From positions 1 to 39,653 of the IMG/VR virus record IMGVR_UViG_3300045988_114594: 39,653 nucleotides of DNA; one strand, given 5' to 3'. The notes under the pieces were generated by a model, which saw only the letters and a program-made list of their open reading frames with translations, ran no database searches and was not told the origin of the DNA. A program made the translations under genes and the position numbers. Source of the DNA: a virus. Positions 56 through 29,992 of this stretch are shown piece by piece (position 1 is the first letter of the stretch; every line of letters begins with the position of its first letter).

Positions 56-3000
56 GACCAAGACGATTGAGGGCGCCTGGGGGAACCTTGAGGCGGCCCT
101 GACGTCCGGGGCGATGGGTATCGTCGACCAGATCAAGCCCGCCCTGACCGACTTCATGGGGAATGTCGCCACCGGGGCCGAGGCGGCTTTCGGGTGGATC
201 AACGACAAATTGGTGCCCGGCATTCAGGGCGTCTGGGACATTCTCTCCAAGGGAAAGTTTGACGGCTCCGATAAACTCTTCGGACTCGAAGAAGATTCTG
301 GTATCGTCGATTTCCTTTTCAAGATCGGGGAGTCCGCTCGCGCGGCCGGTGACTGGATTACCGGCACGCTCGTGCCCGGCCTACAGGGCGTCGCCAGCAT
401 CCTGTTCTCCGGCGACTACCAGGGGCCTGATTCACTCTTCGGCCTCGAAGAGGACAGTGGGGTCGTGGATTGGCTGTTCCGCATCCGAGATGCTGTCATC
501 GAGGTCGGCAACTGGGTCAACAACACGCTCATCCCGTCACTCCAGAGCGTCGCGTCGATCATTTTCACGGGAGATACGGACAAGCCACTCTTTGGGCTCA
601 AGCCCGATTCGGCCATCATCAGTTTCCTGGAGGGGCTGCGCGACGCCGTTGGCTGGGTAGTGGATGCTGGCCTGAAACTAAGTTCCTGGATCGTCGACAA
701 CAGAGCCCTTTTGGGCGGCCTGGCGGTCACGGTCGGCACTGCTGTCGTGGCTTTCAAGGGCATGCAGGTGGTAATGGCGGTCTCCGCCCTGGGCGGCATC
801 ACCCCGATGATTACGTCCGCTGTGACGGGCTTGATTTCGTTTGAGAGGGTGACAAACCTCGCTAAGAGCGCCCAGATCGCTTTCAACATTGTGTTGAATG
901 CGAACCCGATCATCCTTGTGGTGACGGCTATTCTCACTCTGGTCGCCGCCCTGGCGTGGTTTTTCACCCAGACGGAGACGGGTAAAAAGGCGTGGGCGGC
1001 GATCACCGAGGAGTTTCAGAAGTTCCTGGCTTGGATCGCCCCTTACTGGGATGCGACCCTGAATGCTCTCAGCTCGGCCTGGAATACGGTGTGGAACGCC
1101 GTCAGCGGATTCTTCACCTCCTATGTGGTGCCGGCTATCACGGGCGCTGTAGGCGTCCTGGGGAGCATCTGGAACGGTCTCGTGGGGATTGTGACCGGCG
1201 TCTGGTCTGGTATTCAGACTGCGGTGCAGACGGTCGCCGACTGGTTTACCACCTATGTGGTGCCGGTTTTTGAGGCCGTGTGGACCGGAATCAAGGTCGG
1301 GATCTGGGCGCTGTCCATCCCGTTCATTGTGGTGTGGACGCTTATCCAGGTCGCCGTTCAGTTGGTCGTGGACTGGTTCATGGCCTATGTCGCTCCGACG
1401 CTCGCGACGGTCTGGTCGTGGGTGGTTACCGGGGCGCAATACCTTTGGGTTGGAATTCAGGCCGTGTGGACCGGGATCATGGCCGCCGTCGGCGTGGCCG
1501 TGGATTGGTTCAACGCCTATGTGGCCCCGGTTTTGGCCGCCGTGTGGTCGGGGATCCAGGCGGGCGCGCAATTCCTGTGGAACGGCATCGTGACCATCTG
1601 GAACGGCATCAAGATGGCCGTGCAGGTCGTCGCCGATTTCTTCACGGCCTACGTCATGCCGGCCATTTCCGCAGTGTGGACCGGCATCCAGAGTGGAGCC
1701 CAGTTCCTCTGGAACGGCATCGTGACCATCTGGAACGGGATCAAGGCGACGATCAACACGGTTGTCTCATGGTTCCAGGCCTACGTGCAGCCCGTCATTT
1801 CCGCGGTGTGGAATGGCATCAAGAATGGTGCCGACCTCCTGTGGGGTGGGATCAAGACCGTCTGGAACGGCATCAAGAGCACCATTAATACGGTGGCGTC
1901 TTGGTTCCAGGACACTCTGAAGCCTATTTTTGATACGGTCACGACGAATATCAAAAAGGCTTTCGAGAATATGAAGTCCGGCATTCAGACCGTATGGGAC
2001 TCTGTTAAGGGGATCGCGGCGAAGCCGATTAACTTCATCATTAATACCGTTTACAAGAATGGTATTAAGAAGACGGCCGACAGTATTGCGGAGAAACTGG
2101 GGCTCTCGCTCCGCCTCCCGGACGTCAGCCCGATCCCCGGATACGCAACTGGTGGCGTCCTACCCGGCTACTCGCCGGGGCGGGACATCTACCACTTCTA
2201 CTCGCCGGACGGCGGTGGCGCAATCGCCCTGTCCGGCGGCGAGGCCATCATGCGGCCAGAGTGGGTGAAGGCCGTCGGCGGCCCCGCCGCCGTCCACCGG
2301 ATGAACGCCGCCGCGCGGGGTTCGAGCGGGGCGCACATCCCCGGCGGGGACACGGGCGCGAAATTCGCCGCTTTCGCCAAGGGCGGCATCTGGGACAAGA
2401 TCAAGGGAGCCGCCAGCAGCGGATGGGATGCGGCCACCGGCTGGCTCTCCAGTGCAGCGGATGCGGTCGCCTCGATCATCTCCGACCCGCTCGGGGCGGT
2501 CGAGAACCTTATCCGCATCCCCATGAATGCCGTCATGGGCGGCCTGCCCGGATCCGGCTTCTTCAAGGACATGGCGGCCGCACTGCCCGGCAAGTGGGTT
2601 GACGGTTTCGGTCAGTGGCTCAAGAGCAAGACCGCTACCATGGCCGCCAGCGACATTGTGAACGCCGCGAGGAAGGCGATCGGCGCGACCTACGTGTGGG
2701 GTGGATCCTCGATCCCGCCCGGCGTCGACTGCTCCGGTCTCGTGTACTGGGCGGCCCACCAGATGGGCTCCCAGATCCCGCGCCTGACGGCCGCCGGCTA
2801 CCAGGCAGGCAGCACGCCCGGCGGGTCACTAAATACTCCCGGCACGCTCCTGTTCTGGGGCGCTCCGGCGCACCACATCGCCATCGCCTCCGGCAACGGG
2901 ATGATGGTCGAGGCCCCCACGTTCGGGATCCCGGTCCGCGAGACCCCGATCTACGGCAGCCCGAGCACCGGGCTCTACAAGTTCGACTCCGGGGGCCTGC

Positions 3001-3209
3001 TACAGCCGGGCCTGACGACGGTCCTCAACGCCACCGGCCGGCCGGAACCAGTTTTCACCGGCGGCCAGTGGTCGAAGATCGACGACCTCCTCAGCAAGGG
3101 CGGCAACGCGCCGAGCGTGCTCGAGGTGCGCGACGTCGACGGCGAACTCGTGGGCCGGATGCGCGTCGAGGCCGAGCGTGTCGCCGTCGAGGTCTCACGC
3201 AACGACTGA
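1..3209 (+). CDS. Tape measure protein, C-terminal ~1069 codons (continues from 38917..39653 across the circular junction), with a C-terminal NlpC/P60 peptidase domain
   Basis: The frame is open from nt 3 with no upstream stop and matches the frame of 38917 after the 39,598-nt offset. It has 44-aa W/G-rich tandem repeats, a GYATGG..GGEAIM motif, and an NlpC/P60 block (YVWGG..DCSGLV..HHIAIA). Stop is TGA at 3207-3209. Confidence 0.9.
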   Translation, partial: AAVMDLGMTDVAKEAATSTKTIEGAWGNLEAALTSGAMGIVDQIKPALTDFMGNVATGAEAAFGWINDKLVPGIQGVWDILSKGKFDGSDKLFGLEEDSGIVDFLFKIGESARAAGDWITGTLVPGLQGVASILFSGDYQGPDSLFGLEEDSGVVDWLFRIRDAVIEVGNWVNNTLIPSLQSVASIIFTGDTDKPLFGLKPDSAIISFLEGLRDAVGWVVDAGLKLSSWIVDNRALLGGLAVTVGTAVVAFKGMQVVMAVSALGGITPMITSAVTGLISFERVTNLAKSAQIAFNIVLNANPIILVVTAILTLVAALAWFFTQTETGKKAWAAITEEFQKFLAWIAPYWDATLNALSSAWNTVWNAVSGFFTSYVVPAITGAVGVLGSIWNGLVGIVTGVWSGIQTAVQTVADWFTTYVVPVFEAVWTGIKVGIWALSIPFIVVWTLIQVAVQLVVDWFMAYVAPTLATVWSWVVTGAQYLWVGIQAVWTGIMAAVGVAVDWFNAYVAPVLAAVWSGIQAGAQFLWNGIVTIWNGIKMAVQVVADFFTAYVMPAISAVWTGIQSGAQFLWNGIVTIWNGIKATINTVVSWFQAYVQPVISAVWNGIKNGADLLWGGIKTVWNGIKSTINTVASWFQDTLKPIFDTVTTNIKKAFENMKSGIQTVWDSVKGIAAKPINFIINTVYKNGIKKTADSIAEKLGLSLRLPDVSPIPGYATGGVLPGYSPGRDIYHFYSPDGGGAIALSGGEAIMRPEWVKAVGGPAAVHRMNAAARGSSGAHIPGGDTGAKFAAFAKGGIWDKIKGAASSGWDAATGWLSSAADAVASIISDPLGAVENLIRIPMNAVMGGLPGSGFFKDMAAALPGKWVDGFGQWLKSKTATMAASDIVNAARKAIGATYVWGGSSIPPGVDCSGLVYWAAHQMGSQIPRLTAAGYQAGSTPGGSLNTPGTLLFWGAPAHHIAIASGNGMMVEAPTFGIPVRETPIYGSPSTGLYKFDSGGLLQPGLTTVLNATGRPEPVFTGGQWSKIDDLLSKGGNAPSVLEVRDVDGELVGRMRVEAERVAVEVSRND
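276..740 (+). repeat. Three tandem ~51-53-codon repeats inside the tape measure gene (LFGLEEDSG.VD.LF...LQ.VASI.F.GD)
   Basis: The CTCTTC/CTCTTT repeat heads at 276, 435 and 588 are spaced 159 and 153 nt apart. The peptide units are clearly similar. Confidence 0.8.
1092..2015 (+). repeat. About seven tandem 132-bp (44-codon) repeats inside the tape measure gene
   Basis: The unit is V..V.DWF.AYV.P...AVW.GI..GAQFLWNGIVTIWNGIK. A near-identical 42-mer occurs at 1572-1613 and 1704-1745, offset exactly 132 nt. Confidence 0.85.
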
Positions 3210-10015: not shown

Positions 10016-10260
10016 TCGCCGTCGTCATCACGAGCGGCCTCGCCGCTACCCTGGTCGGGCAGATCGGATCCGCTATCCGCGCTCTCTGGCACGCCCGTCA
10101 GGGGCGGGAGACGGAGGTGCAGGCCGCCCGTAGAGAGGCCGCCCAGTGGGAGATGGTCGCGCGTAGGACGCGCGCGATCGCCCTCGACCGTGGGGCGCCC
10201 CTGGGGGACCTGCCGCGCGGCCCTGGGGAGTCTCCGATCGGGGACCTCGCTGACGACTGA
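9997..10260 (+). CDS. Membrane-anchored coiled-coil protein, lysis-cassette associated
   Basis: A GGAGA RBS is present. The N-terminal TM segment is LIAVVITSGLAATLVGQIG, followed by a charged helix. This is the last + strand gene before the bidirectional terminator. Confidence 0.5.
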   Translation: MRAADLIAVVITSGLAATLVGQIGSAIRALWHARQGRETEVQAARREAAQWEMVARRTRAIALDRGAPLGDLPRGPGESPIGDLADD

Positions 10261-10278
10261 GAGGCCTCTATAGAGCCT

Positions 10279-10319
10279 AGGCGCCCCCGCTACCTACCCG
10301 GGTAGTGGGGGCGCCTTTC
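10279..10319. terminator. Bidirectional intrinsic terminator between convergent genes
   Basis: A 15-bp GC-rich stem (10280-10294 pairs with 10301-10315, one G-U) has a 6-nt loop and is followed by TTTCGTCTTC. Confidence 0.75.
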
Positions 10320-10326
10320 GTCTTCT

Positions 10327-10827
10327 CTAGGCGGCGTTGAAGTTGATGGGCTTCTTCCCCTTGCGGGCGCGGCGCTCGTTGATGAGGTCGCCGGTGGTCT
10401 TCTGCCACCACTTCTTCGGCTCTGGTGCGGCATCCTCGGCCGGCTCGGGCGTGGGTGCCTCGGCTTCCTTCGCGGCGTACTCCTGGCCTCGGGCGACGGC
10501 GACCTTGGCTCGCTTGACGAAGGCCAGTGCCTCACGGTGGCGCTTCGCGTTGATCTCGAAGACGTGCATATTGTCGGTGGTCTCGATGATGATGAACTTG
10601 GTGGCGTCGATCTTCTTCTTGATGGCGAGGGCGAAGATGCCGACGGCGGCGACGCGGGCGGCGGTGACTCGCTTGCTGGCTTCCTTCCCGTCTTCGACGG
10701 CGATGTCGACGACGTCGGTGGCTGGGATGTCTGGGGTGAGGAGGCCGGGGAGGCCGATGGTCCCGTTCGGGGCGACGTGGATGGTGCCGTCGTCGGTCTT
10801 GATGCAGGCGGCGTCGAGGAGTGACAT
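10327..10827 (-). CDS. Hypothetical protein; minus-strand moron between the lysis cassette and attP/int
   Basis: This 166-aa ORF has an AGAAAGG RBS and good GC3. It has one hydrophobic segment (VAAVGIFALAI) and a basic C-terminus. I do not recognise its family. Confidence 0.7.
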   Translation of the reverse strand: MSLLDAACIKTDDGTIHVAPNGTIGLPGLLTPDIPATDVVDIAVEDGKEASKRVTAARVAAVGIFALAIKKKIDATKFIIIETTDNMHVFEINAKRHREALAFVKRAKVAVARGQEYAAKEAEAPTPEPAEDAAPEPKKWWQKTTGDLINERRARKGKKPINFNAA

Positions 10828-10910: not shown

Positions 10911-11070
10911 CGGGTGCCTCGTGACCACCATGGTGCCGCATGATTCTGGGGCTGTCAACCCCTCTCAAGCAGTTATCATGAAGAACTGATTCAAGGGGTA
11001 GGATGGGTTCGAGCGTGGTGCAAAACCGCGCCATTCCGCCAAAACCATCACACCCAACGTGTGCCCTCAT

Positions 11071-11121
11071 GGGCTATCCTGGGCTACACACTGCTATCCA
11101 AACTGCTATCCACTGCTACCC
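11071..11121 (+). repeat. Cluster of (G/C)TGCTATCC-like direct repeats (candidate integrase arm-type sites)
   Basis: The cluster reads GGGCTATCC, GGGCTACAC, ACTGCTATCCA (11089-11099), ACTGCTATCCA (11102-11112) and CTGCTACCC. It shares the TGCTATC core with 10889-10910. Confidence 0.55.
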
Positions 11122-11133
11122 GAGGAGGCCCCC

Positions 11134-12393
11134 ATGGCATACGGAGAAGGCAGCATCTACCAGCGCAAGGACGGGAAGTGGGTCGCCGCCCTCCCCGTCG
11201 GCTACACCCGCTCGGGTGGGCTCAAGAGAGCCACCCGGATCCGCAAGACCGAGGCCGAGGCCAAGCGCGCCCTGAGGCAGTTGCGCCGCGACCATGCCGC
11301 CGGGCAGACCCAGGGTGCGAGCCCGAGGACCACGCTCAAGGCGTGGTGCGACCAGTGGAAGGCTGCCGCCGCCGCGCGTCTGCGCCCCACGAGCCTCGAC
11401 GTCTCCTCCCGGATGATCGACCTCTGGATCGTCCCCACGATCGGCTCCAAGCGCCTCACCGACCTCAACCCAGCCGACCTGAGAACCCTCGATCGGGCGC
11501 ACGAGAAGGCCGGGTCCAGCCCGACAACGGCGCACAGGTGCCGCGCCATCCTCCTCAAGGTCCTCCGAGACGCCCGCACCGAGGGGCACACTGTGCCGCA
11601 GGTCGTCTTCGACGTCCCCCTCCCCAGGAAGGCCCCCAACCGCCGCCGGGCCATCCCCGCCGCCGACGCCGCCACCCTCCTCAAGACGGCGACCGAGCCC
11701 GACGCCTGGCCCACCCTCGACGTCGACGCCAGCAAGCGCGAGCGCAACGCGAGACGCCTCGCCGGCGAGCACGACGCCTCCCGGTGGGTGGCCGCCCTCC
11801 TCCAGGGCCTACGCCAGGGGGAGGCCCTGGGGCTCACCTGGGACCGCGTTGACCTCGCCGCCGGGACGCTCACCATCGACCGCCAGCTCCAGGCCATCCC
11901 CAAGCGGGCACGTGACGCTGGCCTGCCTGGCTGGTATGACGCCGTGCACCTGACCGGCTCCTATCACCTCGTGCCGACGAAGACGGCGGCCGGATCCCGC
12001 GTGCTGCCGATCGTGCCGTGGATGGCGGCCGCTCTCGCCGCCTGGCAGGACCGCTGCCCTGAGTCCCCCTATGGGCTGGTGTGGCCGCGCCCTGACGGCG
12101 GCCCGTGGTCTGCCAGCGACGATATGGAGGCGTGGCACGGCCTCCAGGATGCCGCTGGCATCCACAAGGCCGGCGGCGGCACCGCTGATGACCCGTGGGT
12201 CTACTTTGTGACTCACGAGGCCCGCCACTCGACGGCGACGCTCCTCATGGCCGCTGGCGTCCCCGCCGCCGTCATCATCGCCCTCATGGGGCACACGACC
12301 GTCACAACCACCATGGGCTACCAGCACGCCGACCTCGAGCAGGCTAGGGCGGCGCTCGAGGCTGTGGCTCCCCGCCTCGGCCTGACCGCCTGA
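11134..12393 (+). CDS. int: Tyrosine integrase
   Basis: A GAGGAGG RBS lies at 11122-11128. The N-terminus is MAYGEGSIYQRKDGKWVA (arm-binding type). The C-terminus carries the catalytic signature HEARHSTATLL...GHTTVTTTMGYQH. Confidence 0.9.
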   Translation: MAYGEGSIYQRKDGKWVAALPVGYTRSGGLKRATRIRKTEAEAKRALRQLRRDHAAGQTQGASPRTTLKAWCDQWKAAAAARLRPTSLDVSSRMIDLWIVPTIGSKRLTDLNPADLRTLDRAHEKAGSSPTTAHRCRAILLKVLRDARTEGHTVPQVVFDVPLPRKAPNRRRAIPAADAATLLKTATEPDAWPTLDVDASKRERNARRLAGEHDASRWVAALLQGLRQGEALGLTWDRVDLAAGTLTIDRQLQAIPKRARDAGLPGWYDAVHLTGSYHLVPTKTAAGSRVLPIVPWMAAALAAWQDRCPESPYGLVWPRPDGGPWSASDDMEAWHGLQDAAGIHKAGGGTADDPWVYFVTHEARHSTATLLMAAGVPAAVIIALMGHTTVTTTMGYQHADLEQARAALEAVAPRLGLTA

Positions 12394-12519: not shown

Positions 12520-12801
12520 TCAGCAGGAGAACTGGGGGAACCGCTGCTCCTCGCGTAGGCGGTCCTCGGCGCGGGAGATGATCGTGGAGGCGCTGACTCC
12601 GAGGGCGTCAGCGAGCGCGCACAGGGGCTCGAAGGTGATGGGGCGCTCGGCCTGTAGGAGGCGGATGAGGGAGCGTTTGGGGATGCCTGAGGCGTCAGAG
12701 AGGCCGCTCACGGTCATGTGCCGCTCCTCGCGGAGCGTGCGGAGTTCGGCGGCCGCAGCGGCGTTGAGGCCGACCCCAGGATTCGTTGCTCGCGTGCTCA
12801 T
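12520..12801 (-). CDS. CI-like repressor (XRE-family HTH)
   Basis: The product is 93 aa with HTH MTVSGLSDASGIPKRSLIRLLQ. It is divergent from the cro-like gene and lies next to int. Only the last 93 codons of the 282-aa track ORF look coding. Confidence 0.8.
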   Translation of the reverse strand: MSTRATNPGVGLNAAAAAELRTLREERHMTVSGLSDASGIPKRSLIRLLQAERPITFEPLCALADALGVSASTIISRAEDRLREEQRFPQFSC

Positions 12802-12810
12802 GTCTCCACT

Positions 12811-12826
12811 GTGCCACATTGGGCAC
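12811..12826. promoter_or_regulatory. Degenerate operator (GTGCCACATTGGGCAC), 10 nt upstream of the repressor start
   Basis: It matches the GTGCCCA-NN-TGGGCAC palindrome at 13/16 positions. Confidence 0.5.
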
Positions 12827-12872
12827 CAAGATGACGGAACGGTAACGAAGTTCTGACGGGTTTCCCAGCGAC

Positions 12873-12915
12873 TTGCCAGGTGCCCAAATGGGCACCTAGG
12901 GTTGTCCACATGGAC
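12873..12915 (+). promoter_or_regulatory. Early rightward promoter with embedded operator; probably gives a leaderless cro-like transcript
   Basis: The -35 is TTGCCA (12873-78). An 18-nt spacer consists entirely of the palindrome GGTGCCCA-AA-TGGGCACC (12879-96). The -10 is TAGGGT (12897-902), and ATG 12910 lies 8 nt after it. A second palindrome, GTCCA-CA-TGGAC, is at 12904-15. Confidence 0.6.
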
Positions 12916-14125: not shown

Positions 14126-14457
14126 CCACCGCCAGCACCATCCACCCCCGCGAGCGCGGCAGCGTCCGCGCCAACGACCCTGTCACCAGCCAGTGGGCGG
14201 CCGACTCCATCACCGACACCTTCCCCAGTCAGGCCGAGGTGCTGAGTGCTATCCGCCGCTCCGGCCGCACCACCTTCACGCTCGCCGACGTCGAGCGGTT
14301 CACGCGTGGTGTCCTGTCCCCGTCCCGTGCGCGCACCGCTGTGCGGGAGCTTCAGGACAAGGGCCTCATCGAGGAGACCGGCAAGTACGCGATCACGGCC
14401 TCCGGCCGGCGTGCCCGCCTCCTCACCCTCACCAAGCAGGGGAGGGCCGCAGCATGA
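14122..14457 (+). CDS. Winged-helix (MarR-like) DNA-binding protein
   Basis: The 111-aa product has the wHTH-like segment AEVLSAIRRSG.TTFTLADVERF....SRARTAVRELQDKGLIE. Confidence 0.5.
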   Translation: MTTASTIHPRERGSVRANDPVTSQWAADSITDTFPSQAEVLSAIRRSGRTTFTLADVERFTRGVLSPSRARTAVRELQDKGLIEETGKYAITASGRRARLLTLTKQGRAAA

Positions 14458-14729
14458 CCCGCATCCTCCTGCCGGGGCGCCTGGTGCGGCACATCGCCGA
14501 CGTCGGAGACCCTGTCCGCTACCAGGGCGGCACCTGGTACCCGCTGGTCCGGCTCTGCGGCGGCAGCAAACGCCTCGCCGGAGGCGAGTTCATCACCCAG
14601 CACTGCGAGGACGTCGAGAGCGCGTGCCTCACTGGCCCTCTCGTCTGCCCGGCCTGCCTCGCCGCCCACCAGCCCGCCGACGTCGAGGACCCCACCATGG
14701 GGACCATCCCCCTCTTCGACCTGCCATGA
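14454..14729 (+). CDS. Hypothetical Cys-rich protein
   Basis: This 91-aa ORF is coupled by ATGA at both ends. Confidence 0.5.
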   Translation: MTRILLPGRLVRHIADVGDPVRYQGGTWYPLVRLCGGSKRLAGGEFITQHCEDVESACLTGPLVCPACLAAHQPADVEDPTMGTIPLFDLP

Positions 14730-15817
14730 CGCTCAAGCTCGGAGAAATCTGTGCGGGCTATGGCGGGCTCGGCCTCGGCCTCGGGCTCCTGGCCGACGTC
14801 GACACCAGGTGGGTCGCCGACGTCGACACCGGCCCATCCAGAATCCTCGCCCACCACTGGCCCGACTCCCCCAACCTGGGGGACATCACCCGCATCGACT
14901 GGGCAACCATCGAGCCCGTCGACGTCATCGCAGGGGGCACCCCCTGCCAGGACCTATCCAACGCCGGCCACCGCGCCGGAATGAGGCCAGGCACCCGCTC
15001 AGGAATCTGGGAGGCCATGGCCCACGCAATCAAGGAGATCGCCCCGAATGTCGTCGTCTGGGAGAACGTCAGCGGCGCCCGCTCAGCGGCCGCCTATAGC
15101 CGTCTGGAACCCGGTCCGGGATGTCTGGGAGGGGGGGCAGACCGACCTGTTCTCCGGGCTCTCGGACGTGTGGTCGGAGACCTGGCCGGCCTCGGGTATG
15201 ACGCGGCGTGGGAGTCTCTACGGGCTTCCGACGTCGGAGCCCCGCACCAGCGCGAGCGGGTCTTCGTCCTCGCGTGGCGTCACGACTCTGCCGACACCCT
15301 CCGCATCCTGCGCGACCGGCCCAGGAGAGCATGGGGACGGTGGAATGAACCTACAGACAGCCGTTGCGTCACTGCTGGCGTGACGCCCACGCCTCAACTT
15401 CTCCCGACACCTGTCGTGAATGACATGGGAGAGGGCTACGACCTTGAGGGTGGGAGCGTCTGGAGGAAGAAACTGAGGGAGCGTCACGGCAATAACGGGC
15501 ACGGCCGGCCCCTGAGTATCGAGGCGCGGCGCAGCAGCGGCCACTGGGCGCAGTATGCGCCAGCGATCCACCGGTGGGAGGAGGTGACGGGGCGTGAGGC
15601 ACCGCCGCCGACGGAGACCGGCCAGCGCGGCGGGGACGTCCTCTCCCCGGCGTTCGTCGAGTGGATGATGGGCCTCCCTGCCGGGCACGTCACGGACACG
15701 CCTGGGCTCTCACGGTCGCAGGCACTCAAGGCCCTGGGGAACGGAGTCGTCCCCCAGCAGGCAGCACATGCAGTCAACCACCTAGCAGAAACGGCACTCA
15801 AGCATGGATTCGTTTAG
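14726..15817 (+). CDS. DNA (cytosine-5) methyltransferase, orphan
   Basis: Motifs present: I ICAGYGGLGLG, IV GGTPCQDLSNAG, VI ENV, VIII GAPHQRERVFVLA, X GNGVVPQQA. No adjacent restriction endonuclease gene is visible. Confidence 0.9.
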   Translation: MTLKLGEICAGYGGLGLGLGLLADVDTRWVADVDTGPSRILAHHWPDSPNLGDITRIDWATIEPVDVIAGGTPCQDLSNAGHRAGMRPGTRSGIWEAMAHAIKEIAPNVVVWENVSGARSAAAYSRLEPGPGCLGGGADRPVLRALGRVVGDLAGLGYDAAWESLRASDVGAPHQRERVFVLAWRHDSADTLRILRDRPRRAWGRWNEPTDSRCVTAGVTPTPQLLPTPVVNDMGEGYDLEGGSVWRKKLRERHGNNGHGRPLSIEARRSSGHWAQYAPAIHRWEEVTGREAPPPTETGQRGGDVLSPAFVEWMMGLPAGHVTDTPGLSRSQALKALGNGVVPQQAAHAVNHLAETALKHGFV

Positions 15818-26600: not shown

Positions 26601-26812
26601 CACCCGAGGTGCTTAATCAGGCGCTCGCCATTGTCACCGAGGAAGCCGCCAAGGCGGCCGTGAAGAGAAGCCTCACCGCCGCCATGATGGGGCACGCCGC
26701 CGCCATCGGCGGCCTCGCAGCTGGACTACCAGCAGACGACGCCACCGAGGCCATAGGCCAGGTGATCGGCATGCTCATCGACTCCCGAGACGTCATCGGA
26801 GACATGAAGTGA
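26597..26812 (+). CDS. Hypothetical protein
   Basis: This 71-aa ORF is ATGA-coupled. Confidence 0.45.
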   Translation: MTPEVLNQALAIVTEEAAKAAVKRSLTAAMMGHAAAIGGLAAGLPADDATEAIGQVIGMLIDSRDVIGDMK

Positions 26813-27063
26813 GCGACATCGAGATCGTGCACCCATGGGCTGAAGCGCCCTGGGTGGCCGCGAGCGCCGAGGAACAAGCCAAGCGAGATGCAGAGGACGC
26901 CGAGTGGGACCGCCTAGCAGGCGCGATCGCACGGGTAGCCATCGCCGTCAACCGCCCCGGCAGGCTACCAGTCGAGGCTATCCCCTTCAGTCCCGGATAT
27001 GCCACCATGAGGCTCCCGGACCATCCGAGAGAGGAAGGGCCGCTACTGGTCCTCCGAACATGA
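26809..27063 (+). CDS. Hypothetical protein
   Basis: This 84-aa ORF is GTGA-coupled. It is the last gene of the rightward early operon. Confidence 0.45.
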   Translation: MSDIEIVHPWAEAPWVAASAEEQAKRDAEDAEWDRLAGAIARVAIAVNRPGRLPVEAIPFSPGYATMRLPDHPREEGPLLVLRT

Positions 27064-27064
27064 C

Positions 27065-27097
27065 GAAGGCGCCCCACCAAACCGGTGGGGCGCCTTC
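27065..27097. terminator. Bidirectional terminator between the early (+) operon and the leftward (-) operon
   Basis: A perfect 14-bp stem (GAAGGCGCCCCACC / GGTGGGGCGCCTTC) has a 5-nt loop. Confidence 0.8.
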
Positions 27098-27102
27098 CGT
27101 TC

Positions 27103-27345
27103 TCAGTACTGCTCGATCGGCAGCAGGCCACTACGGATGAGACGGTCAGTCACATAGTCTTCCTCGTCGTAGCCGACATCCGAGGTGAACCTCAGCGTCT
27201 TCGGGCCGTACACGGTCCAGCGGTGCCCGGTCAGAGTGGTCTCGCACCGGACCTCGACCTCGCGGAACTGGGCCAATTTGGGGCGGCGCGTGAGTCGGCA
27301 CACGAAGTCGGACAGGTCGACGTAGTCGTCAATGGAAACGCTCAT
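27103..27345 (-). CDS. Hypothetical protein (leftward operon A, gene 3)
   Basis: This 80-aa ORF has a GAGGA RBS. I do not recognise its family. Confidence 0.55.
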   Translation of the reverse strand: MSVSIDDYVDLSDFVCRLTRRPKLAQFREVEVRCETTLTGHRWTVYGPKTLRFTSDVGYDEEDYVTDRLIRSGLLPIEQY

Positions 27346-27378
27346 GAGTCCTCGCTAAGCGGTAGGCGTTGGGGTGGG

Positions 27379-27588
27379 TCAGTCGTCGTCTTGCTTCAGG
27401 CGGTCGATCAGCCTGCTGATCTCCACCCGGTTCATCGACTCCAGCCAGTTCTCCACGCTGCCGGAGCGTTCCCTCATCGTGGCCCCGAGGGCGGCGAACG
27501 AGGAGTTCATATACCGGGTGTCGTAGCCGGCCTCGTCGAGGAGGTAGAGGGCGTAGGCGACCTGCTTGGGGGTGGCGCTAGCGGCCAT
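27379..27588 (-). CDS. Hypothetical protein (leftward operon A, gene 2)
   Basis: This 69-aa ORF has a GGAAGGAA RBS and an acidic C-terminus (KQDDD). Confidence 0.55.
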   Translation of the reverse strand: MAASATPKQVAYALYLLDEAGYDTRYMNSSFAALGATMRERSGSVENWLESMNRVEISRLIDRLKQDDD

Positions 27589-27623
27589 GGTTGGTTCCTT
27601 CCGTGGGGTGTTTGGGTGGGTCG

Positions 27624-27665
27624 TGCCCGGCGGGGGAGTCGAACCCCCGCTGCGACCATCCGGGC
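27624..27665 (-). other. tRNA-like acceptor-stem/T-arm minihelix (not a complete tRNA)
   Basis: The minus strand reads GCCCGG-A-TGGTCGCAGC-GGGGG-TTCGACT-CCCCC-G-CCGGGC-A. It has a canonical T-arm with a TTCGA-type loop stacked on a 6-bp acceptor-like stem. The D and anticodon arms are absent. The element lies in the 88-nt gap between two minus-strand ORFs. Confidence 0.5.
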
Positions 27666-27676
27666 GGGTAGGTGGT

Positions 27677-27961
27677 TCAGTGACGCCACCTCTGACGAAG
27701 AATCTTGTGCTTGTCAGCGGCCTCGCGGATAGCGCGGTCGACAGCCCTGATGCTCGTACCGGTGAATCGTGAACGACCGCCGGAGAAGCCGCGCGGGGCC
27801 AGGAACTCGACTACGCCGCCGTGCTGGTCAGCGCGGATGATGATGGTGCACTCCGCGTCTCTGACGTTGTGGGGGTAGGCGGTGATTGCGGCGGCGGTGG
27901 CGACCTCGCCGTCCGTGTGGCGCTGGAGGGCTTCGGTGAGGCGCTGGGTGATGGTGCTCAT
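27677..27961 (-). CDS. Hypothetical protein (leftward operon A, gene 1)
   Basis: This 94-aa ORF has an AGAAAGGAA RBS that is nearly identical to the RBS of the 29186 gene. Confidence 0.55.
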   Translation of the reverse strand: MSTITQRLTEALQRHTDGEVATAAAITAYPHNVRDAECTIIIRADQHGGVVEFLAPRGFSGGRSRFTGTSIRAVDRAIREAADKHKILRQRWRH

Positions 27962-27994
27962 TTTGGGGTTCCTTTCTTTGTTCCCGATGCCTTA

Positions 27995-28024
27995 AGTGTA
28001 TGTCCACATACTCAATGGGGGCAA
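27995..28024 (-). promoter_or_regulatory. Leftward promoter P_A with palindromic operator
   Basis: On the minus strand, the -35 is TTGCCC (28024-19), the spacer is 18 nt and the -10 is TACACT (28000-27995). The palindrome GTATGT-CC-ACATAC lies at 27998-28011. The block 27959-28028 is about 75% identical to 29184-29254. Confidence 0.55.
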
Positions 28025-28028
28025 GTCT

Positions 28029-28247
28029 TTAAGATGTGCGCTGCCACACACCAAGCCAGCGGTCCAACGTCTGCCGAGTCACCCCCACCGCCAGCGCCAC
28101 CGGAGCCTTACCCTTCCCGGCACGCACCGCAGCCACCGCCGCAGCACGACGCCGCTCCTCAACCTCCTCCAGCGCCTCACGAACCGCCTCCACCTCACAA
28201 CGCAGACGATCCAACTCCAACAAGCTCGGACACTCACTCGTGCTCAC
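28029..28247 (-). CDS. Small coiled-coil plus HTH protein (candidate autoregulator of the leftward operons)
   Basis: The ORF starts with GTG at 28247 after a GGGAGGG RBS (ATG 28292 is an alternative) and encodes 72 aa. The C-terminal HTH is APVALAVGVTRQTLDRWL. Its stop abuts the -35 of P_A. Confidence 0.5.
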   Translation of the reverse strand: MSTSECPSLLELDRLRCEVEAVREALEEVEERRRAAAVAAVRAGKGKAPVALAVGVTRQTLDRWLGVWQRTS

Positions 28248-28479
28248 GACACCCTCCCTGACTCTCCAGGAGCGAATACTTCCAGGCGTCACAGATGCCT
28301 ATCATGGTGAAAGTATTGCCCTTCATGAAAACCTCATAGGCATCCACCTCACGCTCGACGTAGTCCATCGACTCCACCTGAGCCAACACCAGCCAGGACC
28401 CCAGCATGTCGCCAGGCTTCTCATCTGCCAGGTGCGCGGCCAGAGCATCCTCCAGCACCCGCTTCGTCTCGGCACTCAT
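28234..28479 (-). CDS. Hypothetical acidic protein (leftward operon B, gene 3)
   Basis: This 81-aa ORF has a GGAAGGAG RBS. Confidence 0.55.
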   Translation of the reverse strand: MSAETKRVLEDALAAHLADEKPGDMLGSWLVLAQVESMDYVEREVDAYEVFMKGNTFTMIGICDAWKYSLLESQGGCREHE

Positions 28480-28500
28480 TGTCTACTCCTTCCAGGTCAG

Positions 28501-28527
28501 GCCCGGCCCCCGACGTGAGGGCCGGGC
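28501..28527 (-). other. Intercistronic GC-rich hairpin
   Basis: GCCCGGCCC-N9-GGGCCGGGC lies between the 111-aa and 81-aa genes. Confidence 0.4.
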
Positions 28528-28537
28528 AGGTGGGTGG

Positions 28538-28873
28538 TCAGTCGTCCAGGGCATCCTGGATCATCCGGCGGTAGGCGTCGATCGCCTTCGTCACCGCCGG
28601 GGCAGGGTGACGCTCAGACGGGCCGCGATGGCCTGCATAGATCTCCTCAGGCCACTCCTCACTCGGCACGTAGACCTCCAGGTCGGGCCAGCAAGCGGGG
28701 TCCTCCGTCGTCGAGTAGGAGCCGTCAGGGTGACGCACCAAGATTGCCGCCTGGACTTCGTCGTCGATGGAGTCGAGGCAGAGGGTGATGTGCGCCCCGT
28801 CCGGGGCGTCAGCGGCGAGGACGGCACCAGGGATGTCGTAGTACTTGGCGGGGTTCCAGTTGTAGCAGGCCAT
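28538..28873 (-). CDS. Hypothetical strongly acidic protein (leftward operon B, gene 2)
   Basis: The ORF starts at ATG 28873 after a GAAAGGAA RBS and encodes 111 aa. The longer track ORF from 28945 would run through the hairpin. Confidence 0.55.
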   Translation of the reverse strand: MACYNWNPAKYYDIPGAVLAADAPDGAHITLCLDSIDDEVQAAILVRHPDGSYSTTEDPACWPDLEVYVPSEEWPEEIYAGHRGPSERHPAPAVTKAIDAYRRMIQDALDD

Positions 28874-28893
28874 GAGGGGTTCCTTTCTGGGGG

Positions 28894-28918
28894 TGCCCGC
28901 CCCTTTCCGGGGCGGGCA
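28894..28918 (-). other. Intercistronic GC-rich hairpin
   Basis: TGCCCGCCCC-TTTCC-GGGGCGGGCA lies between the 85-aa and 111-aa genes. Confidence 0.4.
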
Positions 28919-28928
28919 ACGAGGGTGT

Positions 28929-29186
28929 TCAGTTGGTGCGAGCATTGGCGAGGGCGGTAGCGATCATGCGCTCCACCACGCCGGGGAGATTGAGGAGGGT
29001 GGTGTCCTCGTAGGCGAGAGCGCAGTTCACACGGTACATCGCACCAGGGATGGGGTGGATAGTGGCGAGGCCACCAGCCCAGTGGACCTCCACCGCCTGG
29101 CCCTTGCCGCCAGGGTTGTCCTGGATGGTTACGGCGTTGCCGAAGTGCCTGATGAGGTAACTTGCTGCGACGGTGATGGGGGTCAT
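28929..29186 (-). CDS. Hypothetical protein (leftward operon B, gene 1)
   Basis: The ORF starts at ATG 29186 after an AGAAAGGAAAA RBS and encodes 85 aa. Confidence 0.55.
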   Translation of the reverse strand: MTPITVAASYLIRHFGNAVTIQDNPGGKGQAVEVHWAGGLATIHPIPGAMYRVNCALAYEDTTLLNLPGVVERMIATALANARTN

Positions 29187-29220
29187 TTCGGTTTTCCTTT
29201 CTGTCCGTTCCGATGGCTCT

Positions 29221-29250
29221 AGTGTATGCCACCATACCGAATGGACGCAA
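29221..29250 (-). promoter_or_regulatory. Leftward promoter P_B with palindromic operator
   Basis: On the minus strand, the -35 is TTGCGT (29250-45), the spacer is 18 nt and the -10 is TACACT (29226-21). The palindrome GTATG-CCAC-CATAC lies at 29224-37. Confidence 0.55.
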
Positions 29251-29256
29251 GTCTGA

Positions 29257-29440
29257 GGGGGTGCACACAAACAGTGGGGTAGGCCACAACAAAGAGGGGT
29301 GGACCTACAAAGGCGGGGCCCTATCGCAAGCACCCCACCCCCTCAAAAGCAAGGGGCACCCCCATCAAACAAGGGGGCAGGGGTAACAACACAGGGGTAG
29401 GGGGTGAACGATAAGGGGCACCCCACAACAAGCACACCCC
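29257..29440. repeat. Phased array of about nine ~20-bp units (A/C-rich CAA(A) tract followed by a GGGG run)
   Basis: G-runs start at 29257, 29276, 29296, 29315, 29353, 29373, 29394 and 29415, with spacings of 19, 20, 19, 38, 20, 21 and 21 nt. C-run variants lie at about 29333 and 29436. The region is non-coding, between P_B and the HNH gene. Confidence 0.8.
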
Positions 29441-29532: not shown

Positions 29533-29562
29533 GAGCCCAGCCACCCACAAGGTGCTGGGCTC
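29533..29562 (+). other. 9-bp-stem hairpin just upstream of the HNH start
   Basis: GAGCCCAGC-N12-GCTGGGCTC. Confidence 0.4.
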
Positions 29563-29593
29563 CACTACTGCCTACCCTTCTGGGGAGAAGGGA

Positions 29594-29992
29594 ATGGGGA
29601 GAAGCGAGGCCAGCGCCCACGCACAGCAGCGTGTGGCGCTGGCCTGCGCACACGCGCGCGAGGAGGACGACGTGGCCACCTCACGCACCGGCACCACACG
29701 CTGGCTCCACAACGCAGCAACAGCCAAGCGCAGCGCACGCGCGGCAGGACTAGAGCACTGTCCCATCTGCCACGTCCGCCTCACCTGGGACGCTGGCCTA
29801 CTGCCTAGTAGCCCTGAGGCCGACCACATCGTGCCTCACAGTCGAGGCGGAAACGACTCAATAGACAATATTCAAATCATCTGCCGAAAATGCAACCAAC
29901 GCAAAGGAAACGGCAGAAAAGCGCGGCCGCCGAAACGGAAACGTTATCAACCAGCCCGAATTCGACAGACAACCGACACCGAAACGTGGTAG
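29594..29992 (+). CDS. HNH endonuclease (terminase-associated type)
   Basis: ATG 29594 follows a GGGGAGAAGGGA RBS. The product is 132 aa with the motifs CPICH...ADHIVPHSRGGNDSIDNIQIICRKCNQRKG. The gene lies immediately upstream of TerS and TerL. Confidence 0.85.
   Translation: MGRSEASAHAQQRVALACAHAREEDDVATSRTGTTRWLHNAATAKRSARAAGLEHCPICHVRLTWDAGLLPSSPEADHIVPHSRGGNDSIDNIQIICRKCNQRKGNGRKARPPKRKRYQPARIRQTTDTETW

What the first reader, a model, noticed from the sequence alone, without database searches (positions are those of the whole stretch)
27103..29256. Two co-regulated leftward operons of small ORFans ending in an HTH gene: candidate anti-defence (acr/aca-like) island
Seven small minus-strand ORFs (69-111 aa) run against the direction of almost every other gene and form two operons.

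Promoter blocks. Each operon is preceded by a ~70-bp block. The two blocks (27959-28028 and 29184-29254) are about 75% identical (54 of 72 columns in my hand alignment). Each block has:
- a -35 of TTGCCC or TTGCGT;
- an 18-nt spacer;
- a -10 of TACACT;
- a GTATG-N4-CATAC palindrome overlapping the -10 (27998-28011 and 29224-29237);
- an almost identical AGAAAGGAA ribosome-binding site.

Operon content. Operon B (29186 -> 28029) encodes three ORFans, two of them strongly acidic, and ends with a 72-aa coiled-coil plus HTH protein. The stop codon of that gene abuts the -35 of the second promoter.

Interpretation. A strong promoter with an inverted repeat, small acidic ORFans and a terminal HTH autoregulator is the known architecture of anti-CRISPR/aca and other phage anti-defence operons. 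I recognise no family for any of the seven proteins.

Two further points. P_A shares the 9-mer TGTCCACAT (28001-09) with the cro promoter (12903-11). If cos lies beside the HNH and TerS genes, this island sits at the extreme right end of the packaged DNA.
Basis: partly seen in the sequence, partly recalled or inferred. Interest (0 to 1): 0.7.

Follow-up and report, generated by a model that had tools for sequence, protein, structure and literature searches.

The report
Self-regulated phage island with tRNA-mimic
A temperate phage from human oral metagenomes (probably an Actinomyces phage) carries two adjacent operons of small, swappable genes that appear to be switched by one tiny DNA-binding protein, the layout of phage counter-defence loci, and one operon contains an apparently undescribed miniature tRNA look-alike that recurs in many phages of actinobacteria.

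Summary
Seven minus-strand ORFs (85, 111, 81, 72, 94, 69 and 80 aa) form two operons. Each operon sits behind a duplicated promoter block carrying a GTATG-N4-CATAC dyad over the -10.

About 40 related oral-phage contigs back this up. All 42 distinct homologous promoters keep both half-sites while N4 varies freely. A sister group has GTACA-N4-TGTAC at the same place, together with a changed recognition helix in the same HTH protein. The HTH gene (B4) is the constant element and the cargo genes are shuffled. One relative lacks operon A entirely.

The acr/aca-like architecture is therefore well supported. The anti-defence function is not. No cargo protein matches anything of known function. Relatives carry tiny membrane peptides. 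The HTH weakly resembles the RelI antitoxin. The 9-mer shared with the cro promoter is chance.

The unexpected part is a 44-nt tRNA-like minihelix between A1 and A2 (27622-27665). It is a 6-bp acceptor-like stem, a conserved linker and a T-arm. It is absent from Rfam, unannotated in every GenBank record examined, and has strong covariation (8 of 12 pairs). It recurs, always in sense, in intergenic spacers of oral, Mycobacterium and Gordonia phages.

The parts
29184..29254 (-). Promoter block P_B. -35 TTGCGT at 29245-29250, 18-nt spacer, -10 TACACT at 29221-29226. Operator dyad GTATG-GTGG-CATAC at 29224-29237. Conserved leader AGAGCCATCGG. RBS AGAAAGGAA at 29194-29202.
   Evidence: Sequence. 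Alignment to P_A. The dyad is unique to P_A and P_B in the window. It is conserved in all 42 distinct homologous promoters found with a pattern that did not constrain the left half-site.
28929..29186 (-). B1, 85 aa, near-neutral cargo protein. No family.
   Evidence: Present in 11 related loci and replaced by other genes in the rest.
28895..28917 (-). GC-rich intercistronic hairpin GCCCGCCCC-GGAAA-GGGGCGGGC, with no U-tract.
   Evidence: Read from the sequence. The same hairpin precedes the B2 homologue in L008 although the upstream gene differs.
28538..28873 (-). B2, 111 aa, acidic (pI 4.3). The most widely kept cargo gene.
   Evidence: Only 13 relatives among 5.8 billion proteins. About 34% identity to an unannotated ORF of Actinomyces phage LC001. 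The AF2 model is poor (pLDDT 61) and has no fold match.
28501..28527 (-). GC-rich intercistronic hairpin GCCCGGCCC-N8-GGGGCCGGGC.
   Evidence: Sequence. Conserved in L008.
28234..28479 (-). B3, 81 aa, acidic (pI 4.5). Overlaps the B4 start by 14 nt.
   Evidence: Absent from many relatives, in which B4 follows B2, c12, c4 or c24 instead.
28029..28247 (-). B4, 72 aa, GTG start. A long helix (residues 9-42) followed by a C-terminal helix-turn-helix (47-54 and 58-65). Inferred dimeric repressor of P_B and P_A.
   Evidence: Pfam HTH_23 E = 2.4e-5. AF2 pLDDT 91.6. 169 close relatives, one named from Actinomyces massiliensis. It is the gene just upstream of the second promoter in nearly all two-promoter loci. 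Its recognition helix changes with the operator half-site.
27959..28028 (-). Promoter block P_A. -35 TTGCCC at 28019-28024, -10 TACACT at 27995-28000. Operator dyad GTATG-TGGA-CATAC at 27998-28011. RBS AGAAAGGAA at 27969-27977.
   Evidence: In relatives, P_A-type copies are always preceded by the 3' end of the HTH gene.
27677..27961 (-). A1, 94 aa, basic (pI 10.7). A singleton among the related loci, with a faint resemblance to cargo family c12.
   Evidence: An hmmsearch with the c12 profile scores only 9 bits.
27622..27665 (-). tRNA-like element (TLE): GCCCGG-AUGGUCGCAG-CGGGGG-UUCGACU-CCCCCG-CCGGGC-ACG. It is a 6-bp acceptor-like stem, a 10-nt conserved linker, a 6-bp T-stem with a T-loop, and an unpaired A.
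   Evidence: No tRNA by ARAGORN. No Rfam family. MFE fold. Covariation in 8 of 12 pairs with 97.9% of cells paired. Covariance model hit of 72 bits, the only one in the window. 48 IMG/VR contigs but 1 of 185,579 species genomes.
27379..27588 (-). A2, 69 aa. Member of a widespread small domain family of unknown function.
   Evidence: 128 representative clusters. The domain also occurs in larger proteins, one of them fused to TIR. It lies downstream of the TLE in the five loci that carry it.
27103..27345 (-). A3, 80 aa, acidic. No family.
   Evidence: Three related loci carry it.
27065..27097 (.). Perfect 14-bp inverted repeat with a 5-nt loop, between A3 and the convergent plus-strand gene 26809-27063. 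Likely a bidirectional terminator closing the island.
   Evidence: I4. Conserved in L008, where it follows the HTH gene directly. The T-run scanner does not call it.

Best explanation
The region is a self-contained, self-repressed accessory-gene island of a temperate siphophage of oral actinobacteria (probably Actinomyces). It lies within about 0.3-0.8 kb of the packaging (HNH/TerS) end.

Regulation (inferred from comparison).
- Two host-type promoters, P_B and P_A, are each overlapped from the spacer into the -10 by a 14-bp dyad, GTATG-N4-CATAC.
- B4 is a 72-aa protein made of a long dimerisation helix and a C-terminal HTH. It is made from the P_B operon.
- B4 binds both dyads as a dimer and blocks RNA polymerase. 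Expression is therefore a burst followed by negative feedback on both operons.

Cargo (shown by comparison). The other genes are exchangeable cassettes, separated by GC-rich hairpins or by the tRNA-like element, and they are shuffled between related phages.

Function (inferred by analogy only). The cargo most likely acts on the host early in infection, as counter-defence or host take-over. It is mostly small, very acidic proteins.

tRNA-like element (structure shown, role inferred). The 44-nt element between A1 and A2 is a real conserved RNA structure that mimics the acceptor/T-arm half of a tRNA. I propose that tRNA-processing enzymes (RNase P at its 5' side, a 3' tRNA-end nuclease after the unpaired A) recognise it. 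That would cut the polycistronic RNA, freeing a downstream mRNA that starts with a CA-rich unstructured leader, and possibly releasing a stable mini-RNA.
For: Anatomy and duplication.

Operator.
- All 42 distinct homologous promoters recovered with TACACTNNAGNCATCGG keep GTATG...CA(TAC). That pattern does not constrain the left half-site.
- The spacer takes about 20 different N4 sequences, and the neighbouring positions vary.
- A sister group (L037, L049, L058, L106, L133) has GTACA-N4-TGTAC in the same register. Where the HTH gene is present in the locus (L037, L049, L106, L133), its recognition helix reads VSRMSLDDWL instead of VTRQTLDRWL.

Architecture.
- The HTH gene sits directly before the second promoter in 16 of 17 multi-promoter loci.
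- L008 keeps P_B, B2, the HTH gene and the terminator, but lacks B1, B3 and all of operon A.
- P. freudenreichii phage G4 shares the terminase (57%) and lacks the island.

B4 fold: pLDDT 91.6. Its nearest viral folds are small HTH proteins of actinophages.

Regulatory independence: the window's cI/cro operators are different sequences and the dyad occurs nowhere else.

Literature: Aca repressors bind promoter inverted repeats and often control an adjacent operon as well (PMC6765145, PMC9410906, PMC13551039).

TLE. It is always co-oriented with the flanking genes and lies 10-17 nt after a stop codon. In Jovo it follows the first gene behind a promoter-like TTGACA/TAGATT pair at the extreme right genome end.
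Against: - No cargo protein has detectable similarity to any known anti-defence protein. Dedicated Acr/anti-defence HMM sets were not available.
- Relatives carry 34-60 aa hydrophobic peptides in the cargo slots. These look more like exclusion or membrane effectors than inhibitors.
- The island has its own promoters without cI operators, so it might be expressed in lysogens.
- The B4 profile weakly matches the RelI antitoxin (E = 0.0027).
- Binding of B4 to the dyad rests on one co-variation event between two clades.
- Some relatives have a 180-aa gene after the HTH gene, so the HTH gene is not always last.
- The TLE stems are nearly invariant within the oral-phage group. The covariation comes from distant phages, several of which I picked with a stem-requiring filter.
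- No transcript data exist for this phage.
Confidence: 0.5

Rival explanations
1. The island is a moron-type unit expressed from the prophage. Its products serve the lysogen (superinfection exclusion, defence against other phages, or another conversion trait), and B4 merely keeps the level low.
For: - It has its own promoters and terminator, opposite orientation to its neighbours, and is present or absent among relatives.
- No cI-type operator lies on P_A or P_B.
- Relatives carry small membrane peptides, c6/c19 and c4.
- The A2-like domain is fused to TIR in one protein.
Against: - There are no PADLOC hits.
- The cargo is mostly small acidic soluble proteins.
- The TLE of operon A occurs elsewhere in operons that hold replication genes or follow right-end promoters, as in Trine, Reedo and Jovo.
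- The island lies at the packaging end rather than next to the immunity region.
Confidence: 0.22
2. B4 is the antitoxin of a type II toxin-antitoxin pair, with B3 or another neighbour as the toxin. The dyad is the usual TA auto-operator.
For: - The B4 profile matches the RelI antitoxin (PDB 9sdc) at E = 0.0027 over 42 residues.
- RelI is likewise a small coiled-coil plus HTH protein of actinomycetes, encoded after its toxin (PMC13284704).
- B3 and B4 overlap by 14 nt.
Against: - The gene upstream of B4 is not constant: it is B3, B2, c12, c4 or c24 in different loci.
- B3 is acidic and has no RelE/ParE/BrnT or other toxin signature.
- The same operator also drives a second, unrelated operon.
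- RelI itself shows no evidence of DNA binding (PMC13284704).
Confidence: 0.07
3. These are ordinary early genes of unknown, non-conflict function (for example modulators of host metabolism or replication). They sit behind an early promoter with a dedicated repressor, like the non-essential right-arm genes behind Pleft in cluster A mycobacteriophages.
For: - The position and orientation are analogous to the Pleft operons (PMC5712189).
- The TLE is shared with such operons.
- Nothing ties the cargo to defence systems.
Against: The rapid cassette turnover, the extreme acidity of many cargo proteins and their very narrow distribution are typical of conflict genes rather than housekeeping phage functions.
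Confidence: 0.18

Closest known systems
acr-aca (Aca-regulated anti-defence) operons, including Aca proteins that also repress a neighbouring operon (PMC6765145, PMC9410906, PMC13551039)
   Same: - Small variable ORFs lie upstream of a conserved small DNA-binding gene in one operon.
- A strong promoter carries an inverted repeat over the core elements.
- The same repeat sits on an adjacent operon.
- The cargo is mostly small and acidic, with a narrow taxonomic range.
   Different: - No cargo gene is a known or homologous Acr or anti-defence gene.
- B4 is a long-helix plus HTH_23-like protein. It has no detectable relation to the Aca proteins with solved structures.
- There is one dyad per promoter, not two.
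- The host is an actinobacterium.
- Binding and repression are untested.
Pleft early operon at the right genome end of cluster A mycobacteriophages L5, D29 and StarStuff (PMC5712189)
   Same: - A leftward promoter lies close to the right or packaging end and drives small non-essential genes.
- It is repressor-controlled through an operator at the promoter.
- The TLE occurs in that operon in Jovo, SWU2 and L5.
- RNA from that region is reported to be processed and stable.
   Different: - Pleft is controlled by the immunity repressor and stoperators, not by a regulator encoded in the operon.
- The abundant L5 RNA is non-coding and is not the TLE itself.
RelI antitoxin / ClpC2-like HTH proteins of actinomycetes (PMC13284704; PDB 9sdc)
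   Same: A protein of about 80 aa with a coiled-coil helix followed by an HTH. Restricted to actinomycetes. Borderline profile match (E = 0.0027).
   Different: There is no conserved toxin partner. B4 has a conserved dyad operator, whereas RelI has no demonstrated DNA binding.
tRNA-like processing signals. From my own knowledge, not tested here: plant mitochondrial t-elements, MALAT1 mascRNA, and the RNase P-processed C4 and CI RNAs of phages P1 and P4. Also the tRNA-like domain of bacterial Y RNAs (PMC4201824).
   Same: An acceptor-like stem stacked on a T-arm with a UUCGAnU loop and an unpaired purine 3' of the stem, embedded in a longer transcript. The only Rfam model that aligns at all is mascRNA (E = 9.6, not significant).
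   Different: - It is only 44 nt, with no D-arm or anticodon arm.
- It has its own conserved 10-nt linker, A(U/C)GGUCGCAG.
- It sits between protein-coding genes of actinophage operons, up to 10 or more copies per operon.
- Processing has not been shown.

Membership tests
acr-aca / Aca-regulated anti-defence operon | A small DNA-binding regulator gene is encoded in the same operon as the small cargo genes. | tested here: met
   B4 hits HTH_23 and has a confident HTH model. It is kept in nearly all related loci while the cargo varies.
acr-aca / Aca-regulated anti-defence operon | An inverted repeat lies within the operon promoter. | tested here: met
   The dyad overlaps the -10 at both promoters. 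The half-sites are invariant in 42 distinct promoters while N4 is free. The dyad symmetry is kept with a new half-site in the sister clade.
acr-aca / Aca-regulated anti-defence operon | The regulator binds that repeat and represses transcription. | not testable with these tools
   Only indirect evidence: the recognition helix and the half-site change together between two clades.
acr-aca / Aca-regulated anti-defence operon | At least one cargo gene is, or is homologous to, a validated anti-CRISPR or anti-defence gene. | tested here: inconclusive
   No hit in Pfam, PHROGs, NCBIfam, PDB sequences or Foldseek. The dedicated sets (dbAPIS, AntiDefenseFinder, Acr HMMs) were not available.
acr-aca / Aca-regulated anti-defence operon | The regulator belongs to a named Aca family (Aca1-14). 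| tested here: inconclusive
   A profile search of all PDB chains, which to my knowledge include Aca1, Aca2 and Aca10, returned none at E <= 10. No Aca HMM library was on hand for the other families.
Type II toxin-antitoxin (RelS-RelI-like) | The antitoxin is homologous to RelI. | tested here: inconclusive
   E = 0.0027 and 21 bits over 42 residues, covering helix plus HTH.
Type II toxin-antitoxin (RelS-RelI-like) | A conserved adjacent toxin gene co-inherited with the antitoxin. | tested here: not met
   The upstream neighbour differs among loci. There is no toxin-family hit for B3 or B2.
Moron (independent transcription unit inserted in a phage genome) | Own promoter and terminator, and presence or absence between related genomes. 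| tested here: met
Moron (independent transcription unit inserted in a phage genome) | Expressed from the repressed prophage. | not testable with these tools
   The only hint is that P_A and P_B carry no cI-type operator.
tRNA gene | A cloverleaf with D-arm and anticodon arm. | tested here: not met
   ARAGORN finds no tRNA in the window. The element is 44 nt.
tRNA-like acceptor/T-arm minihelix | About 12 stacked base pairs closed by a 7-nt UUCGAnU T-loop, with an unpaired nucleotide 3' of the stem. The pairing is supported by covariation. | tested here: met
   6 + 6 bp; 97.9% of cells paired; 8 of 12 pairs with changes on both sides. Slid controls give 42-62% paired. The covariance model recovers copies in nine further phage genomes.
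tRNA-like acceptor/T-arm minihelix | Recognised or cleaved by RNase P and tRNA 3'-end enzymes. | not testable with these tools
   Inference from the shape only.
Any Rfam 15 family (for the TLE) | The score reaches the family's gathering threshold. | tested here: not met
   The best match is mascRNA-menRNA at 16.4 bits against a threshold of 42.5, E = 9.6.

The most novel reading that the evidence does not exclude
The 44-nt tRNA-like element defines a new class of phage RNA punctuation. tRNA-processing enzymes excise it from early polycistronic transcripts of actinobacteriophages, with up to 10 or more copies per operon. The released mini-tRNA is itself active, for example as a decoy or competitor for tRNA-directed host enzymes or tRNA-targeting defence nucleases, or as a CCA-tailed or charged minihelix. 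The island that hosts it here would then be a counter-defence locus run by a new, actinobacterial Aca-type repressor family.
Probability: 0.15. Interest if true: 0.85.

Novelty: new variant of a known kind. Interest (0 to 1): 0.62.

Why it matters
1. It gives a clean, comparatively validated promoter/operator/regulator module for phages of oral Actinomyces, a host group in which I found no described phage regulation or counter-defence (three searches of the open-access library). The 14-bp operator can be used as a search key for candidate counter-defence or host-take-over genes. About 15 cargo families were already recovered this way.

2. The tRNA-like element is a short, strongly covarying RNA motif. 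It is absent from Rfam, unannotated in the GenBank records I opened, and was not found in the literature searched.

3. The element is present in cultivable model phages of M. smegmatis and Gordonia (Jovo, SWU2, L5, ObLaDi, Trine). Its role is therefore directly testable: mRNA punctuation by RNase P, RNA stabilisation, or a tRNA decoy.

4. It may also help explain the processed, stable early RNAs long seen at the right end of cluster A mycobacteriophages.

Tried and rejected
- attP or host tRNA fragment as the origin of the tRNA-like element. Rejected. The integrase is 15 kb away. There is no second copy in the window. The element occurs in 48 viral contigs but in only 1 of 185,579 species genomes. 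It is always in sense inside operons.
- TLE as an intrinsic terminator. It has no U-tract and is not called.
- Link between P_A and the cro promoter through TGTCCACAT. Rejected as chance.
- One concatenated query for B1+B2+B3 in the large protein search. It worked poorly, returning only two B2 hits.
- Megablast of the island against isolated phages found nothing. tblastn of all seven proteins gave only two weak hits.
- Structure route for B2. The model was too poor (pLDDT 61) and the Foldseek hits were meaningless.
- Foldseek of B4 against the PDB gave no significant match, only generic HTH and Fis-like folds.
- A1 as a paralogue of B1 or of family c12. Only the first five codons and a 9-bit profile score support it, so this is not established.
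- Locating cos from the contig ends of relatives. The ends are inconsistent, and one carries adaptor-like sequence.
- D29 has no full TLE, so the published D29 63-64 intergenic RNA is not explained by it.
- Pfam on the large proteins that contain A2-like domains was uninformative except for one TIR fusion and one adjacent MerR HTH.
- Pfam on the 180-aa gene that follows the HTH gene in some relatives found nothing.

Full report
WHAT THE WINDOW IS.

The 39.65-kb window (66.8% G+C) is a circularly permuted, complete genome of a temperate siphophage.
- Identical DNA occurs on a 39,717-nt contig and on fragments from human oral metagenomes.
- The window carries a tyrosine integrase (11059-12393), a divergent cI-like/cro-like pair around 12800-12910 with their own palindromic operators, a C5 cytosine methylase, and an HNH endonuclease (29552-29992) followed by the small and large terminase subunits.
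- Its large terminase is 57% identical to that of Propionibacterium freudenreichii phages G4 and Doucette.
- One homologue of the island's HTH protein is named from Actinomyces massiliensis. B2 has a weak relative in a Schaalia/Actinomyces phage. The host is therefore probably an oral Actinomyces. This is an inference.

THE OBSERVATION.

- The seven minus-strand ORFs are present, and an independent gene caller called the same seven.
- The two promoter blocks share 57 of 73 aligned positions. Random 71-mers of the window give 35 +/- 3.
- Each block has a TTGCnn -35, an 18-nt spacer, a TACACT -10, a GTATG-N4-CATAC dyad reaching from the spacer into the -10, and an AGAAAGGAA ribosome-binding site.
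- In the window the dyad occurs only at these two places. The RBS 9-mer occurs only in the island, three times.
- B2 and B3 are strongly acidic (pI 4.3 and 4.5).
- B4 starts at a GTG that overlaps the end of B3 by 14 nt. It stops 4 nt before the P_A -35.
- A perfect 14-bp hairpin (27065-27097) closes the island against the convergent plus-strand gene.
- The consensus scanner does not call the promoters or this terminator. Their status rests on the comparative evidence below.

COMPARATIVE EVIDENCE FOR THE REGULATORY MODULE.

Finding relatives.
- Scanning IMG/VR with the operator pattern found 27 related contigs plus one chance hit (L019).
- That pattern fixes the half-sites, so I repeated the scan with TACACTNNAGNCATCGG. 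This second pattern constrains only the -10 and the leader.

The operator.
- Among the homologous promoters recovered this way, all 42 distinct sequences have GTATG at the left and CA completing CATAC at the right.
- The four central bases take about 20 different values. The -35 and the two bases before the dyad also vary.
- Invariant half-sites around a free spacer is the pattern expected of a site read by a protein dimer.
- A sister group of contigs has GTACA-N4-TGTAC in exactly the same register over the same TACACT -10.

The gene maps.
- The usual order is: promoter/operator, a variable set of small genes, the HTH gene, then often a second promoter/operator with another variable set.
- The HTH gene lies directly upstream of the second promoter in 16 of 17 multi-promoter loci.
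- In the GTACA clade the HTH protein is longer but alignable. Its recognition helix reads VSRMSLDDWL instead of VTRQTLDRWL. Protein and operator have thus changed together. This is a single event, so it is supportive rather than conclusive.

Presence and absence.
- L008 is about 80-86% identical in the shared parts. It has P_B with the dyad, different first genes, a B2 homologue, no B3, the HTH gene and then the terminator. Operon A is absent altogether.
- Phage G4 lacks the whole island.

The HTH protein.
- B4 models confidently (pLDDT 91.6) as one long helix followed by a two-helix HTH.
- Foldseek finds no significant PDB neighbour. The top hits are generic HTH proteins and Fis.
- In the viral library the nearest folds are small HTH proteins of Gordonia, Mycobacterium and Microbacterium phages.

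WHAT THE CARGO IS.

- Apart from B4 (HTH_23, E = 2.4e-5), none of the seven proteins has a Pfam, PHROGs, NCBIfam or PADLOC family. The profile or sequence searches I ran for B2, B3 and A2 found no relative with a solved structure.
- B2 has only 13 relatives among 5.8 billion proteins. Its model is too poor to use.
- A2 is not an ORFan. It has 128 representative clusters among 1.84 billion proteins. The domain also occurs inside larger proteins, one of them fused to a TIR domain.
- In relatives the same slots hold other small, very acidic proteins (pI 4.1-4.6), a sub-threshold GNAT-like protein, and two tiny hydrophobic peptides of 34-38 aa and 60 aa.
- The cargo therefore looks like fast-turnover conflict genes. 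Nothing identifies its targets.

HOW IT MOST LIKELY WORKS.

Shown:
- a duplicated promoter with a conserved dyad over the -10;
- a conserved small HTH gene inside the first operon;
- exchangeable cargo.

Inferred:
- B4 dimers bind both dyads and repress both operons. This is the negative-feedback logic published for Aca proteins, which bind promoter inverted repeats and often also control a neighbouring operon (PMC6765145, PMC9410906, PMC13551039).

By analogy only:
- the cargo acts in counter-defence or host take-over.

Supporting circumstance:
- the island lies next to the packaging end;
- the tRNA-like element of operon A is otherwise found in operons that contain replication genes, or that follow the right-end promoter of cluster A mycobacteriophages.

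Against:
- the membrane peptides in relatives;
- the absence of any cI-type operator on P_A and P_B, which leaves lysogenic expression open;
- the best match of the B4 profile among solved structures, the RelI antitoxin (E = 0.0027; PMC13284704).

I rate a toxin-antitoxin reading low. The gene next to B4 is not constant, and none of those neighbours looks like a toxin.

THE 9-MER AND COS.

- TGTCCACAT is shared by P_A and the cro start region. In P_A it spans the unconstrained N4 spacer, and P_B lacks it. I regard it as chance.
- The position of cos could not be fixed, because the contig ends of relatives are inconsistent.
- By analogy with G4, where the HNH gene is the last gene before the genome end, the island would lie 0.3-0.8 kb from the right end.

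THE UNEXPECTED ELEMENT.

Sequence and shape.
- Between A1 and A2, on the coding strand, lies GCCCGGAUGGUCGCAGCGGGGGUUCGACUCCCCCGCCGGGCACG (27665 down to 27622).
- It has an acceptor-like stem, a T-arm with the canonical UUCGAnU loop, and an unpaired A.
- ARAGORN finds no tRNA. Rfam has no family for it; the best match is mascRNA at E = 9.6.

Distribution.
- BLAST found the same 44 nt at 87-95% identity in unrelated phages: Gordonia phages Cafasso, ObLaDi and Morgana, and an oral Caudovirus. The match is intergenic and unannotated in each.
- A degenerate pattern finds it in 48 IMG/VR contigs but in only one of 185,579 species-representative genomes. It is therefore phage-borne, not a host att fragment.
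- Across 56 instances it is always co-oriented with the flanking genes. It lies 10-17 nt after a stop codon and 30-40 nt before the next start, followed by a CA-rich leader.
- More distant copies occur in Mycobacterium phages SWU2, Journey13, Indlulamithi, Jovo and L5, and in Gordonia phages ObLaDi, Octobien14 and Trine.

Covariation.
- On an alignment of 20 distinct copies, the 6 + 6 bp structure is paired in 97.9% of cells.
- 8 of 12 pairs change on both sides (41 cells).
- None of 500 shuffles reaches the observed values. Versions with the 3' partner slid by 1-3 columns give only 42-62% pairing.
- A few G-U pairs fit RNA rather than DNA.
- The linker A(U/C)GGUCGCAG is conserved across oral, Gordonia and Mycobacterium phage copies.
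- Caveat: several of the distant copies were collected with a filter that required stems. The BLAST-derived copies alone already show compensatory changes at five or more pairs.

Covariance model results (R1).
- The window has exactly one copy (72 bits).
- ObLaDi has 10 or more, about one per intergenic spacer of its right-arm operon of small genes.
- Trine has three in tandem. G4 has none.
- In Jovo the element follows the first gene behind a promoter-like TTGACA/TAGATT pair at the extreme right genome end.

Link to published RNA data.
- Published work on L5, D29 and StarStuff reports abundant, stable, processed early RNAs from that region but does not mention a tRNA-like structure (PMC5712189).
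- L5 has a full element between genes 89 and 88.
- L5 also has a T-arm-like hairpin in the zone where the abundant RNA is reported to end (E = 0.15, a lead only).

Prior description.
- Searches of the literature found no description of this element.

Proposed mechanism (inferred, not shown).
- tRNA-processing enzymes recognise the element, which punctuates polycistronic early RNA.
- From my own knowledge, the 5' eleven bases resemble the start of bacterial tRNA-Leu. I did not test this.

VERDICT.

- The acr/aca-like architecture is supported by comparison.
- The anti-defence function remains a reasonable but unproven analogy.
- The island is a new variant of a known kind of locus.
- The embedded tRNA-like element is the most novel item, and it is directly testable in cultivable phage-host pairs.

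Noticed in passing
window 27622-27665 (minus strand); also L178 (Gordonia phage ObLaDi) 1526-6861, L180 (Trine) 2880-3153, L175 (Jovo) 731-774, L172 (SWU2) 1547-1590, L176 (L5) 125-173: A 44-nt tRNA-like minihelix family found in intergenic spacers of actinophage operons. It is not in Rfam and is unannotated in the GenBank records opened. Covariation is strong. ObLaDi has 10 or more copies in one operon.
   Followed up: yes
window 29260-29440 (between P_B and the HNH gene): About six copies of a C-run plus TTGTTG/TGTTTG motif (for example ccccactgtttgtgtgcaccccc), conserved in relatives L008, L015, L033 and L091. They may be terminase or cos-binding repeats. The cos site itself was not located.
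   Followed up: partly
window 27379-27588 (A2); P0167, P0175: A2 belongs to a widespread small domain family that Pfam does not name (128 representative clusters). It occurs alone and inside larger proteins. One protein has it fused to a TIR domain, and one has it next to a MerR HTH.
   Followed up: partly
L176 842-858 (phage L5, record 51141-51157) and L184 11988-12004 (D29): A T-arm-like hairpin (UCGGG-UUCGAUU-CCCGA) lies in the 51,140-51,190 zone where PMC5712189 reports that about 90% of the abundant Pleft RNA ends. The covariance-model score is weak (E = 0.15).
   Followed up: partly
window 12803-12910: The divergent cI-like/cro-like intergenic region has its own palindromes (GTGCCCAAATGGGCAC and TGTCCA-CA-TGGACA). 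A TTGCCA-N-TAGGGT promoter lies only 7 nt before the cro ATG, which suggests a leaderless cro transcript.
   Followed up: no
window 14246-15817: A C5 cytosine DNA methylase (Pfam DNA_methylase, E = 1e-28). This is a candidate anti-restriction function outside the island.
   Followed up: no
L009, L026, L029, L036, L052 (first gene after P_B, 109 aa): In some relatives the first cargo gene is a very acidic, sub-threshold GNAT-like protein (Acetyltransf_7, E = 8e-5).
   Followed up: partly
L173 10230-10772; L016, L023, L035, L091: In some relatives a conserved 180-aa gene with no Pfam family follows the HTH gene on the same strand. The HTH gene is therefore not always the last gene of its operon.
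   Followed up: partly
L180 (Gordonia phage Trine) 2886-3689, annotated gp40: The annotated hypothetical CDS gp40 contains three tandem tRNA-like elements about 110 nt apart. Its 5' part is probably not coding.
   Followed up: no
L008 (GCA_015473185.1, BNJV01000072.1) 10087-10767: The B2 and HTH homologues carry frameshifts at homopolymer runs, and the structural genes are split. These look like assembly errors rather than real pseudogenes.
   Followed up: no
L178 8474-8794 (ObLaDi gene 135); BFVD hits A0A9E7TYF3 (Aleemily) and A0A3G3MA22 (Octobien14): The TLE-punctuated operon of ObLaDi and Aleemily ends with a small 'DNA binding protein' gene. Small HTH proteins of TLE-bearing Gordonia phages are among the nearest fold neighbours of B4. 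The layout of cargo, TLE and HTH gene may be a wider actinophage design.
   Followed up: no
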